In this document: one piece after another, positions 24,010-27,000 of the stretch
How the letters are laid out: each line of letters begins with the position of its first letter
Position numbering within the stretch: position 1 is the first letter of the stretch
Assembly (NCBI RefSeq): GCF_003334385.1
Contig: NZ_QOWN01000026.1
Length of the DNA: 64,000 nt
Strand: one strand, 5' to 3'
From: Escherichia coli
GTDB taxonomy: Bacteria > Pseudomonadota > Gammaproteobacteria > Enterobacterales > Enterobacteriaceae
Program-made: the position numbers and the translations under genes
Notes under the pieces: generated by a model
Database searches by the model: none
What the model saw: only the letters and a program-made list of their open reading frames with translations
What the model was told of the DNA's origin: nothing

Positions 24010-27000
24010 TCAGAACGACCAGTTCACACCAGCTACCGCGTTCCACGGGGATTCCACACCGGCACTATGGCTATACCCCACCCCAAGATGCCCGCTTAAC
24101 GTACTGCTGAATGAGGCTTTAATACCTGCCTGGTATATTCCACGTCTGCCCGACAAATAATTGACGAAATTACCGTCACTATTCACTTTCACCCGGTTAT
24201 CATCGACAAATTCTTTGCGCACAGCCGCCTTCAGCCACGGCTCAACTTCCATACCGTTCCCCAGACGCATGTTGTAACTCAGCGTTGCGCCCAGTTCACG
24301 ATATATACTGCGGGTATCGACTGATTTCGATTTCATGCCATTGGATAAATGATATTCGGGGTTATCAGCGGTGAACCCCGTTAACGATGCATACGGCGTC
24401 AGGTTCCAGTTACCATCGGTAAATCGCATCCCGGTTTCAATGTGACCGCCCAGCCCGTTGCTGTGGTAACTGCCATTGGCGGCTCCACCGCTGCTCATTT
24501 TACCTGCTACGTTACTTTTAAAACGGTTCAGCTTCACGACACCGTCCAGATAGAAACCACTTTCATGTTCCCAACTGGCATAGCCGCCCAGAGAATAACT
24601 GCCCACACTGCCATGTCCTCCGCGATCAAAACCGATATGTGAATGGGAATAGCCCATAAAAGCGCCTAGCGTGGTAATTCCTTCAGGAATATCATTACGG
24701 CTGTCGATCCCCACTGTCATTCCGGTCAGCGTCTGCTCAAACCCGGCACCCGCATCGGTGGTGACATTATTACGGGTGTTATACGTCGCCCCCCAGACAT
24801 TATTGTTGTGTGGACTCGCTTTCATTATGTTCAACCGCTCGCGAATACTGTTTAGCTCAGCATCAAATACCAACGGTAATGTTGCTGCCATATTGAGTAC
24901 GGCTGCCGTAGAAGGCGTAATGCGTTTCTCCGGAACGGGTGTCGGCGTTGGATCGGGAGTAGGGTCTGGTTTTGGATTTGGGTCTGGCTTTGGATCGGGT
25001 TTTGGGTCTGGCTTTGGATTTGGGATGGGGTCCGGGTTGGGTTTGACATCATTGGTCAGGTTCCAGTTGCTGTTGCCGTCACTTTTCAGGACATACTCAT
25101 AGGTCCCAAGATCAACGAAACCGCCGGTATTGCCCAGCGTAAACGAAGCATCCCCTCCCCCTGTTTTCACCAGCGTCATCGCGTCGTCAGACTGTGGGCT
25201 GACGCCGGTATCCTGAACAAAGATTTTAAAATTACCAGTGGCGTTGTTGTTGACGACCAGTTGATCGCCCCGGGAGCCTGCAACGTTGGTATGCAGGTAG
25301 AAATTACCGCTACCGGAAAGTTCATTGGTTGTCAGCGTATTGTAGATACCGTTAGTTGTGGCAGGCGCTGCTGTTTGTGCTGACAAATAAACATCACCGT
25401 CGTTGAGTAGCAAACTGTTTACTCTATATTCGCAGTTGCTGGTACCTGCACAGGAATTATTGCTGTTAAGCCAGACACTGCCCCGGCTGGCAGCCGTCAG
25501 GTCGGCAAGCGTGGTATCGACGCCATTTCCCAGAGTCAATGTCGCGCTATCGGTAATCCGGACCGCCCCTTCGAGTTTAACTGGCGTAACATTATCCCGT
25601 GGCGTCATTAACGACAGGCTTCCTGTCGCGCCACTGACCGATGCATCCGCCAGCGTACCTGCGTAGACGATTGCCGTACCGCCAGCGACCTGGAGATCTT
25701 CTGCCCGGGCCAGAGCCTGAAACTCATCTTTTGACCGCCCAAGGGTATATTGCCCGCCAGAGTTAACCTTTGTGGCGGAGTCCTGACCCAGGTTTTGCAT
25801 TGCCCCACCCTTGCCAACCGTGGAGTCGCGAGCTTCGGTACCTGCTAATACCAATAAATTACCGCCATTTTCCAGCAACATATTGGTCGCTAAATTGCCG
25901 GAAATGGAAAAAGTACCGTACTGGTGAGTACCGCTGATTTCAATACCGTTAGCCGTGCTCGTCTGGAGAGCGGCACCGCTGTTCTGGACGATATCTGTCG
26001 CTTTGCCATTATCGTTGACTGTCAGCGTACCGCCTTCATTGATCTTTGTTTTTATTGCCTCTCCGTTAGCTGAAACTGTTTGTATTCCGCCGTCGTTAAT
26101 TGTTGTCTCATTCGCCACACCCTCGACAATTTGTTCACCGCCGGTGAGCGTCGTGCCTGTCGCAGTGGCTTTTGTTTTGACGATCTCCCGTCCGCCCATA
26201 TTGACCTGTGTTTTGTCAGAAGAGGTGTCTGACTCCACGGTTAACACGCCGCCATTTGCCAGCAGGATATTGTTCGCCGCACCCTGCTCGATGCTGAACG
26301 CGACGCCATCCGCGCGTGTTCCTGTGACCCGCGTCGCCCTGGTGGTTGCAACCAAAGCGCCCTGGCTACTCTGCTGTATCCCCGTTGCGCTGCCTTTCTC
26401 CCGCACATCGAGTGTGCCGCCGTCATTAAGCACCGAGTTTTCAGCCAGACCGCCCTCATTAACTACCTGTGAACCCCCATTAATAATGGAACCTTCCGCT
26501 GTCCCGTTTGCCATAATTTGTTGTAGGCCAGAGACGATATCGGTATTGATTGCCTTACCATAATTCTGAACGGTTTGCGTGCCACCATTGATGTGTGTTT
26601 TCTCTGTTGACCCACCATCAACAATTTGTTCACCACTTTCGATATTTGCTTCAGTGGCTAAACCATATACCGTTTGCTTGCCACCTTTGATATTTGCTTT
26701 ATCAGAAGTGGCACTGGCATATATTGTTTGGGTGCCAGCACTATTGAGTACAGTGCCAACATCTTTTCCATAAACATCCATTTTGCCGTTGGCATTAATA
26801 ATCGTGTCAACTGCGCGGGAACCAGTGACGACTGTTAATGAGCCAGCATTTTCCAGCACTACATTTTTAGCTTCTGAATTCCTGATGTAGAAAGCATCAC
26901 CATAACTGTTGGTTCCTTCGATAAGTGTTCCGGAGGTCGTGGAAGCAATTAATGCGCCGCCGGATTGTTGCTCAACATGCTTAGCCTCACCACCGTCCTG

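What the first reader, a model, noticed from the sequence alone, without database searches (positions are those of the whole stretch)
24941..25045. Tandem oligonucleotide repeats encoding the Pro-rich linker of ypjA
Near-perfect 12-24-nt repeats encode PNPKPDPKPDPKPDPNPKPDP. Such tracts are prone to slipped-strand length variation and could change the passenger-to-barrel spacing between strains.
Basis: seen in the sequence. Interest (0 to 1): 0.3.

Follow-up and report, generated by a model that had tools for sequence, protein, structure and literature searches.

The report
Variable-length proline spacer in autotransporter YpjA

Summary
Confirmed. On the minus strand, 24931-25041 encodes a 37-residue (Pro-X)19 tract, YpjA residues 1184-1220. 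It lies between the pertactin-like end of the passenger and the alpha-helix that plugs the beta-barrel.

The DNA repeats are imperfect, not "near-perfect": 72-87% matches, plus one exact 19-nt repeat 24 nt apart.

At the ypjA locus I read tracts of 23, 27, 29, 31, 33, 35, 37, 39, 41 and 45 residues. Every length difference is a multiple of 6 nt. Six variants sit on flanks identical to the window. They include reciprocal +24/-24 nt products of the 24-nt unit and deletions between 8-nt direct repeats.

Variation is slow. The K-12 laboratory strains sampled are all identical, and so are the O157:H7 genomes sampled. About 1-2% of K-12-type haplotypes have a non-modal length. It is therefore an in-frame repeat-length polymorphism, like pertactin R1/R2 or the TibA proline-rich domain, not a phase-variable switch.

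Here ypjA carries CAG->TAG at codon 232 and is a pseudogene, so the linker has no function in this strain.

A close paralogue between ymgJ and minE has a much more variable (Pro-Asn)n hexanucleotide tract of 57-85 residues. Any functional effect of spacer length is untested.

The parts
24010..28590 (-). ypjA (EhaD homologue), 4581 nt. It differs from K-12 BW25113 at 6 positions and is a pseudogene here.
   Evidence: Megablast gives 100% identity to E. coli SCU-104 and 99.9% to K-12. Annotated 'adhesin-like autotransporter YpjA/EhaD, internal stop'. Base-by-base comparison with K-12.
27895..27897 (-). Premature amber stop: codon 232 CAG (Gln in K-12) is TAG here.
   Evidence: SCU-104 annotation reads 'internal stop'.
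25054..25422 (-). Pertactin-like C-terminal passenger (autochaperone-type) domain. It ends just upstream of the tract.
   Evidence: Pfam PF03212, E = 9.8e-46, residues 330-452 of the 799-aa C-terminal piece. Weak matches to P.69 pertactin chains 1dab and 2iou.
24931..25041 (-). (Pro-X)19 spacer, YpjA P1184-P1220: PNPDPIPNPKPDPKPDPKPDPNPKPDPTPDPTPTPVP.
   Evidence: Codon table. No regular secondary structure in the AlphaFold model, pLDDT 55-82. Low-complexity Pfam hit to Trypan_PARP (procyclin Glu-Pro/Asp-Pro repeats), E = 3e-7.
24996..25019 (-). First 24-nt unit (ATCCAAAGCCAGACCCAAAACCCG). Its first 19 nt (25001-25019) are repeated exactly in the next unit.
   Evidence: The unit is present once in the 29-aa allele (L007), twice here (the second copy matching at 21 of 24 positions) and three times in the 45-aa allele (L024).
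24972..24995 (-). Second 24-nt unit, matching the first at 21 of 24 positions. It contains the second copy of the 19-nt repeat (24977-24995).
24823..24915 (-). Alpha-helical linker predicted to run through the barrel pore (YpjA 1226-1256).
   Evidence: AlphaFold helix H103-133 of the 403-aa query, mean pLDDT 92.6. The BrkA translocator crystal chain 3qq2 aligns from AELNSIRERL onward, E = 7e-24.
24016..24804 (-). Beta-barrel translocator domain.
   Evidence: Pfam PF03797, E = 1.9e-46. AlphaFold strands 140-402. Homology to Vag8 7akv and BrkA 3qq2.

Best explanation
The tract is a proline-every-second-residue spacer in the type Va autotransporter YpjA. It joins the last folded passenger domain (pertactin-like/autochaperone) to the alpha-helix that sits inside the 12-stranded outer-membrane barrel. 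It therefore emerges at the cell surface directly above the barrel mouth. Alternating Pro-X sequences cannot form helices or sheets and are expected to adopt an extended, fairly stiff polyproline-II-like rod. At about 0.3 nm per residue, 37 residues give roughly 11 nm. The tract most likely acts as a stalk that holds the beta-helical passenger away from the membrane and LPS (inferred). Because the peptide is repetitive and its codons are partly identical, the DNA carries short direct repeats of 8-19 nt at spacings of 6-42 nt. Occasional replication slippage or unequal exchange between them adds or removes whole multiples of 6 nt. This gives in-frame alleles that keep the Pro-X register. The changes arise at a low rate: they are visible between lineages, not within clones. 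Lengths of about 23-45 residues appear to be tolerated, so most of the polymorphism is probably nearly neutral. In the strain of this window the gene is already inactivated upstream by an amber codon, so the spacer is not made as part of a working adhesin. Shown: position, composition, repeat anatomy, allele series, pseudogene status. Inferred: extended conformation, stalk function, slippage as the mutational process, near-neutrality.
For: Position: Pfam PF03212 ends at the residue before the tract, and PF03797 begins 45 residues after it. The helix is at residues 103-133 of the 403-aa query and the barrel follows, AlphaFold mean pLDDT 92.6. The tract is coil with pLDDT 55-82. The BrkA translocator 3qq2 aligns from the helix onward. 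Allele series at the ypjA locus (gene lengths 4.54-4.59 kb where the annotated gene is complete; it is partial in L003, L024 and L029): 23, 27, 29, 31, 33, 35, 37, 39, 41, 45 aa. All length differences are multiples of 6 nt. Alleles of 23, 27, 33, 39 (L029), 41 and 45 aa have 315 nt of flank identical to the window. Indel anatomy: -42 nt between copies of CCAGACCC, -30 nt between copies of CCAAAACC, and tandem duplications of 6, 12 and 24 nt. L007 (-24) and L024 (+24) are reciprocal products of the unit bounded by the 19-nt exact repeat. Frequencies: a systematic 60-row sample of 2526 matching records gave 37 aa 31, 35 aa 17, 39 aa 9 and 29 aa 1. 52 metagenome contigs gave 37 aa 38, 35 aa 8, 39 aa 5 and 29 aa 1. 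Slow rate: every K-12 derivative listed is 100% identical over 415 nt, and the seven O157:H7 (or O157-type) rows all have the +6 nt allele. About 20 non-modal records stand against about 1283 modal ones on the K-12-type haplotype. Precedents: TibA has a proline-rich domain between junction and membrane domain (PMC3835316). Pertactin R1/R2 proline-rich repeats vary in number between alleles on a slow timescale (PMC8931430). TonB Pro-X repeats are expected to form PPII helices (PMC12204202). Among 133 representative homologous translocators, 56 have a Pro-rich segment just upstream of the helix.
Against: No experiment or physical measurement bears on the conformation or on any effect of length. 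AlphaFold confidence in the tract is only moderate, and no coordinates were available to measure its extension. Slippage is inferred from end products; recombination with the ymgJ-minE paralogue could create some alleles, for example the PNPN-containing 39-aa type. Allele counts come from capped listings (60 rows per search, 30 fetched regions), not from an exhaustive census. The singleton alleles (23, 31, 33, 45 aa) rest on one assembly each. Near-neutrality is assumed, not tested. That all alleles keep the Pro-X register is equally expected from the 6-nt DNA periodicity and from selection.
Confidence: 0.8

Rival explanations
1. Adaptive length tuning. Spacer length is selected to match the thickness of the O-antigen or capsule layer of each lineage, so that the passenger is either exposed or shielded. 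The repeat structure is kept because it supplies such variants.
For: Short adhesins, including autotransporters, can be masked by exopolysaccharide, capsule or fimbriae (review PMC8286834, citing Schembri et al. 2004). Length classes are lineage-specific, for example 39 aa in all O157:H7 genomes sampled. The paralogue carries much longer and more variable tracts of 57-85 aa. All alleles keep the Pro-X register.
Against: No association with serotype or capsule was tested. The differences among common alleles are only 2-4 residues (about 0.6-1.2 nm), small compared with O-antigen layers. ypjA is often a pseudogene, truncated or IS-disrupted, which argues for weak selection on the gene as a whole. 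Rare variants on identical flanks look like mutational noise.
Confidence: 0.1
2. Antigenic variation. The surface-exposed repeat is an immunodominant epitope and its length and sequence changes help escape antibody, as proposed for the pertactin repeat regions.
For: The tract is predicted to be surface-exposed. Alleles also differ by residue substitutions within the tract, such as I/N, D/N, D/E and D/A. Pertactin offers a precedent (PMC8931430).
Against: YpjA is grouped with cryptic, biofilm-associated adhesins (PMC9289746) and is not a known immunogen. The variation is slow and one allele dominates. The pertactin paper itself found no antibodies to R1/R2.
Confidence: 0.05
3. Artefact. The length differences are assembly or sequencing errors in a low-complexity region, and the true tract is invariant.
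For: Some alleles (23, 31, 33, 45 aa) come from single assemblies. Two paralogue tracts contain single-base frameshifts in A-runs, typical of long-read errors (L012, L016).
Against: The 29-, 35-, 37- and 39-aa classes recur in many independent complete genomes from different hosts and countries, and again in independent metagenome assemblies. All changes are in-frame multiples of 6 nt with clean repeat-bounded junctions. The tract is only about 110 nt and imperfectly repeated, well within a single read.
Confidence: 0.03

Closest known systems
Proline-rich domain of the E. coli autotransporter TibA (residues 627-677, between junction region and membrane-embedded domain)
   Same: The position in the architecture is the same: passenger, junction/autochaperone, Pro-rich segment, then helix and barrel. 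Both belong to the same AIDA-I-like group of E. coli autotransporters. YpjA and TibA are both placed in 'Group 4' biofilm-forming adhesins (PMC3835316; PMC9289746).
   Different: The repeat sequence differs. No sequence comparison with TibA was run here. Length polymorphism of the TibA domain was not examined.
Pertactin repeat regions R1 (GGXXP) and R2 (PQP) of Bordetella
   Same: These are proline-rich, in-frame repeats in an autotransporter passenger. Their copy number differs between alleles on a slow, lineage-level timescale, and R2 is unresolved or loosely structured (PMC8931430). YpjA carries a Pfam Pertactin domain immediately upstream of the tract.
   Different: R1 and R2 are loops projecting from the beta-helix, not a linker to the barrel. 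Pertactin variation has been linked to vaccine pressure; nothing comparable is known for YpjA.
TonB domain II, (Glu-Pro)n(Lys-Pro)n spacer
   Same: Alternating Pro-X repeats with charged X residues are expected to form an extended polyproline-II rod that spans a defined distance between two functional ends (PMC12204202).
   Different: TonB is periplasmic and force-transducing and is not homologous. The comparison concerns mechanism (stiff spacer), not family membership.
ypjA-like paralogue between ymgJ and minE (PGAP also names it ypjA; from my memory of the K-12 map this is the position of pseudogene ycgI)
   Same: It is 92.8% identical in nucleotides to ypjA nt 2161-4581. It shares the C-terminal end of the tract (PDPTPDPTPTPVPEKR) and the same helix and barrel.
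   Different: The central part of the tract is a nearly pure (CCN-AAY)n hexanucleotide run encoding (Pro-Asn)n, 57-85 aa. It varies by single 6-nt units between close relatives. That is far more repeat-like and variable than ypjA itself.

Membership tests
Type Va (classical) autotransporter, AIDA-I-like | C-terminal beta-barrel translocator domain | tested here: met
   Pfam PF03797, E = 1.9e-46. BrkA 3qq2 E = 7e-24 and Vag8 7akv E = 4e-27. AlphaFold barrel, pLDDT mostly above 90.
Type Va (classical) autotransporter, AIDA-I-like | Alpha-helical linker preceding the barrel and lying in its pore | tested here: met
   Predicted helix at residues 103-133 of the 403-aa query. It aligns with the N-terminal helix of the BrkA translocator chain. 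That it lies inside the pore is inferred from the homologues.
Type Va (classical) autotransporter, AIDA-I-like | Beta-helical passenger with AIDA-type repeats and a C-terminal autochaperone/pertactin-like domain | tested here: met
   Three PF16168 AIDA matches and PF03212 Pertactin, E = 1e-45, in the last 799 aa. EhaD autochaperone clusters are listed in PMC5767081.
Type Va (classical) autotransporter, AIDA-I-like | N-terminal Sec signal peptide | not tested
   The sequence begins MNRTSPYYCRRSVLSLLISALIYASPGMA. A published parts list gives a 29-aa YpjA signal peptide (PMC13101318). No predictor was run here.
Type Va (classical) autotransporter, AIDA-I-like | Intact reading frame (a functional member in this genome) | tested here: not met
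   Codon 232 is TAG in place of CAG at window 27895-27897. Annotated as a pseudogene in the identical SCU-104 record.
Proline-rich extended (PPII-type) inter-domain spacer | Proline at regular short intervals over a long stretch, between two independently folded domains | tested here: met
   19 Pro in 37 residues in strict alternation, flanked by PF03212 and by the helix and barrel.
Proline-rich extended (PPII-type) inter-domain spacer | Extended polyproline-II conformation | not testable with these tools
   The AlphaFold model shows no helix or strand at residues 57-100, with moderate pLDDT. The physical conformation needs CD, NMR or SAXS.
In-frame repeat-length polymorphism of a surface protein (pertactin R1/R2 type) | Allele series differing by whole repeat units, reading frame kept | tested here: met
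   Ten length classes of 23-45 aa, all steps multiples of 6 nt, including +24/-24, +12 and +6 tandem changes.
Phase-variable contingency locus (simple-sequence repeat switch) | Long perfect tandem array of a short unit | tested here: not met
   TRF finds 72-87% matches and 2-4 copies. The longest exact repeat is 19 nt.
Phase-variable contingency locus (simple-sequence repeat switch) | Unit changes shift the reading frame or promoter spacing to switch expression on and off | tested here: not met
   All observed changes at ypjA are in-frame multiples of 6 nt inside the coding sequence.
Phase-variable contingency locus (simple-sequence repeat switch) | High-frequency variation within a clone | tested here: not met
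   All K-12 laboratory derivatives listed are 100% identical across the tract. The O157:H7 (or O157-type) rows (H82-87, H92) all carry the +6 nt length. This comes from listed rows only, not a census.

The most novel reading that the evidence does not exclude
The spacer may be a heritable molecular ruler. On this reading its length, and still more the length of the (Pro-Asn)n hexanucleotide run in the ymgJ-minE paralogue, is repeatedly re-set by slippage. Selection then matches it to the thickness of the lineage's O-antigen or capsule layer. The repeat would act as a 'length-contingency' tract that tunes adhesin exposure rather than switching it on and off.
Probability: 0.08. Interest if true: 0.5.

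Novelty: already known. Interest (0 to 1): 0.17.

Why it matters
It matters little. The tract is part of a long-annotated K-12 gene. Proline-rich, length-polymorphic repeats are a familiar feature of autotransporters such as TibA and pertactin. The allele series documented here (23-45 residues, with clean repeat-bounded indels on one haplotype) is a tidy natural example of slippage in an imperfect coding repeat. It could serve as a minor typing marker, or as a ready-made set of linker lengths for surface-display engineering with YpjA. If spacer length were shown to tune adhesin exposure through the LPS or capsule layer, the finding would become moderately interesting.

Tried and rejected
1. 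I first took the 85-residue (Pro-Asn)n allele of strain VE-T9 (L008) and its relatives (57-85 aa) for extreme ypjA alleles. Checking context showed they lie between ymgJ and minE, in a 3.4-kb paralogue that PGAP also names ypjA. I removed them from the ypjA series. My first label for that site, 'ycgV locus', was also wrong and is corrected in the notebook. From memory of the K-12 map, the ymgJ-minE position is the pseudogene ycgI.

2. A search of the 5.8-billion-protein database with a 157-aa query around the tract returned only 28 hits, mostly short fragments. It was of no use for allele counting.

3. An exhaustive census of tract lengths was not possible. Listings are capped at 60 rows and region fetches at 30. 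I used a systematic 'spread' sample, allele-specific queries and one metagenome pattern scan limited to 25-45-residue tracts.

4. A classical phase-variation reading was considered and rejected: the repeats are imperfect, all changes are in-frame, and clones are invariant.

5. The overlapping plus-strand ORF 24671-25102 (143 aa) is the antisense of a well-supported gene and was not pursued.

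Full report
**What is at the coordinates**

The region lies inside a long minus-strand reading frame. Codon by codon, the alternating Pro-X tract runs from CCC at 25041-25039 to CCG at 24933-24931. 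That is 37 residues with 19 prolines.

Tandem Repeats Finder reports overlapping arrays of period 12, 18, 24 and 42 at 24944-25044. Scores are 60-127 and matches 72-87%. Only two other small hits occur in 10 kb.

The longest exact direct repeat is 19 nt (ATCCAAAGCCAGACCCAAA on the coding strand), with copies 24 nt apart. Other 111-nt windows of the same gene reach at most 12 nt. Only 1.3-2.8% of synonymous-codon resamplings of the same peptide reach 19 nt. The repeats are therefore real, and slightly more than the peptide alone requires. They are imperfect rather than "near-perfect".

**The gene and its state in this window**

Megablast against 5,426 complete E. coli genomes matches the region 100% to strain SCU-104 and 99.9% to K-12 strains. 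The feature is annotated "adhesin-like autotransporter YpjA/EhaD". The full gene is 24010-28590 on the minus strand.

It differs from K-12 BW25113 at six positions. One of them changes codon 232 from CAG to TAG, at window 27895-27897. The identical SCU-104 record annotates ypjA as a pseudogene with an internal stop. In this strain the linker is therefore not part of a working protein.

In YpjA numbering (1526 aa in K-12) the tract is P1184-P1220.

**Position in the protein**

Pfam was run on the last 799 residues.
- Three AIDA repeats (PF16168) were found.
- A Pertactin domain (PF03212, E = 1e-45) ends at the residue before the tract.
- The Autotransporter beta-domain (PF03797, E = 2e-46) starts 45 residues after it.
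- The tract itself gives only a compositional match to trypanosome procyclin (Glu-Pro/Asp-Pro repeats).

The closest solved structures are Bordetella Vag8 (7akv) and the BrkA translocator (3qq2). The BrkA chain begins aligned to AELNSIRERL, just after the tract.

An AlphaFold model of the last 403 residues was built from a 40-sequence alignment and has mean pLDDT 92.6.
- Residues 57-100 have no regular secondary structure. The tract is 61-97, with pLDDT 55-82.
- A helix spans residues 103-133.
- A barrel spans residues 140-402.

More precisely, the tract joins the autochaperone-type domain to the pore helix, so it should emerge at the outer mouth of the barrel. That last step is inferred from homologous structures.

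A 415-nt query centred on the tract matched 2,526 records. The 60 rows listed are taken at even steps down the ranking. Judged by the length of the matched stretch they fall as follows.

| Tract length | Rows (of 60) |
|---|---|
| 37 aa (reference length) | 31 |
| 35 aa (-6 nt) | 17 |
| 39 aa (+6 nt) | 9 |
| 29 aa (-24 nt) | 1 |
| Paralogue | 1 |
| IS-truncated gene | 1 |

I fetched representatives and read the tracts. Allele-specific queries with the 29-aa and 45-aa alleles exposed rarer variants.

At the ypjA locus the tract lengths seen are 23, 27, 29, 31, 33, 35, 37, 39 (two unrelated kinds), 41 and 45 residues. Locus assignment rests on annotated gene lengths of 4.54-4.59 kb; the annotated gene is partial in L003, L024 and L029. 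Every length difference is a multiple of 6 nt, so the Pro-X register is always kept.

An independent scan of public metagenome contigs used degenerate anchors and was limited to 25-45-residue tracts. It found 52 contigs: 37 aa 38, 35 aa 8, 39 aa 5 and 29 aa 1, with 13 distinct DNA alleles. The refutation condition, identical repeat number everywhere, is clearly not met.

**How the variants arise**

Six variants (23, 27, 33, 39-L029, 41 and 45 aa) have 315 nt of flanking sequence identical to the window. They are recent changes on the same haplotype. Their junctions are as follows.

| Change | Junction |
|---|---|
| -42 nt | between two copies of CCAGACCC |
| -30 nt | between two copies of CCAAAACC |
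| +6 nt | exact tandem duplication |
| +12 nt | exact tandem duplication |
| +24 nt | exact tandem duplication |

The 29-aa allele (-24 nt, plus one substitution) and the 45-aa allele (+24 nt) are reciprocal products of the 24-nt unit bounded by the 19-nt exact repeat. The 35- and 39-aa alleles of the other main haplotype differ by one copy of CCCAACCCAAAT. This is the expected signature of replication slippage or unequal exchange between short direct repeats. The process itself is inferred from the products.

**Tempo**

All K-12 laboratory derivatives in the listings are 100% identical across the tract. These include MG1655-type strains, BW25113 derivatives, C600, J53, RV308 and ER1709. The seven O157:H7 (or O157-type) rows all carry the same +6 nt length.

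On the K-12-type haplotype about 1,283 records are at least 99% identical to the window. The variant records I could list number about 20.

| Variant length | Records listed |
|---|---|
| 29 aa | 9 |
| 39 aa | 4 |
| 41 aa | 3 |
| 27 aa | 2 |
| 23, 31, 33, 45 aa | 1 each |

This is a slow, lineage-level polymorphism. It is not a phase-variable contingency locus. The repeats are imperfect, all changes are in-frame, and clones are stable.

**Most likely mechanism**

Alternating Pro-X sequences are expected to form extended polyproline-II-type rods, as argued for the TonB spacer (PMC12204202) and for other proline-rich repeats (PMC8931430). At roughly 0.3 nm per residue (my own figure for PPII), the lengths work out as follows.

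| Tract | Approximate length |
|---|---|
| 23 residues | 7 nm |
| 37 residues | 11 nm |
| 45 residues | 14 nm |

The tract most plausibly acts as a stalk lifting the beta-helical passenger off the barrel and through the LPS layer. This is inference; nothing here measures conformation or function.

The common alleles differ by only 2-4 residues, and rare variants look like mutational noise. ypjA is also often inactivated: by the internal stop here, and by frameshifts, truncations or IS insertions elsewhere. I therefore judge most of the length variation to be nearly neutral.

Adaptive tuning to glycan thickness cannot be excluded, because short adhesins can be masked by capsule or exopolysaccharide (PMC8286834). 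It has no direct support here.

**Comparison with what is known**

YpjA/EhaD is a known cryptic, biofilm-associated autotransporter. It is grouped with AIDA-I, TibA and Ag43 (PMC9289746).
- TibA is described as having "an additional proline-rich domain" between the junction region and the membrane domain (PMC3835316). That is the same architectural slot.
- Pertactin's proline-rich repeat regions R1 and R2 vary in copy number between alleles on a slow timescale (PMC8931430).
- Among 133 representatives of homologous translocators (clusters at 50% identity), 56 have a segment of at least 35% proline within about 120 residues upstream of the helix. Thirteen have a (Pro-X)n run of at least 9 residues.

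Such spacers are therefore common, non-conserved in sequence, and repeatedly gained or lost. I found no paper in the searchable library that describes the ypjA tract polymorphism itself. Even so, it is an unsurprising instance of a known phenomenon.

**Side observation: the paralogue**

Many genomes carry a second gene named ypjA by PGAP, of about 3.4 kb, between ymgJ and minE. It is 92.8% identical to ypjA over the last 2.4 kb and shares the end of the tract, the helix and the barrel.

Its central tract is an almost pure (CCN-AAY)n run encoding (Pro-Asn)n. Lengths of 57, 59, 61, 69, 75, 83 and 85 residues were read. Close relatives differ by single 6-nt units. This is much closer to a true microsatellite than the ypjA tract. 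One such gene (L028) has flanks almost identical to K-12 ypjA, which hints at exchange between the two loci. Its location was not verified.

**Verdict**

Both the observation and the interpretation hold, with three caveats: the repeats are imperfect, the variation is slow, and the functional effect is untested. The gene is dead in this window. The feature is ordinary and of a known kind, so interest is low.

Noticed in passing
window 27895-27897 (minus strand): ypjA carries an amber stop at codon 232 (CAG in K-12, TAG here). The gene is therefore a pseudogene in this strain. There are five other single-base differences from K-12, including P25S in the signal peptide.
   Followed up: yes
L020 4065-7445, L021 4979-8443, and L008, L012-L019, L028 (not in the window): A 3.4-kb paralogue between ymgJ and minE, also named ypjA by PGAP, is 92.8% identical to the last 2.4 kb of ypjA. 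It has a (Pro-Asn)n hexanucleotide tract of 57-85 residues that changes by single 6-nt units between close relatives. Two copies are annotated as frameshifted within the tract region.
   Followed up: partly
L028 (E. coli XJ34, 3471-nt gene): This (Pro-Asn)n-type gene has flanks differing from the window's ypjA at only 2 of 315 positions, against 7-8 for the other paralogues. That suggests recombination or gene conversion between the two loci. Its chromosomal position was not checked.
   Followed up: no
window 23487-24009: ssrA (tmRNA, 23487-23849) lies 160 nt from the end of ypjA. In K-12 BW25113 the end of the CP4-57 prophage (ypjF, yfjZ) sits downstream of ypjA (L002). The prophage that occupies this attachment site in K-12 is thus absent here.
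   Followed up: partly
window 28998-34513: A run of decayed genes lies upstream of ypjA: a recombinase fragment (28998-29165), ypjCB with an internal stop (29502-30875), and an alpha-amylase-like gene with an internal stop (32261-34513). These come from the annotation of the identical SCU-104 record.
   Followed up: no
window 31626-31701 (minus strand): ARAGORN calls this tRNA 'Met (CAT)', while the genome record annotates tRNA-Ile. This is the usual ambiguity for the lysidine-modified CAU isoleucine tRNA (ileY in K-12, from memory).
   Followed up: no
H209 NZ_CP147044.1 and H210 NZ_CP182145.1 (not fetched): In two strains the 739-nt query around the tract matches in two pieces spread over about 1490 nt, with an IS1A transposase annotated in between. 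This is an IS1 insertion within the searched C-terminal segment of ypjA that contains the tract. F765 (L009) has ypjA truncated by IS1203 about 30 nt downstream of the tract.
   Followed up: no
window 28518-28542 and 29530-29568: There are two other small tandem repeats: 12 nt x 2.1 in the signal-peptide coding part of ypjA, and 15 nt x 2.6 in the ypjCB pseudogene.
   Followed up: no
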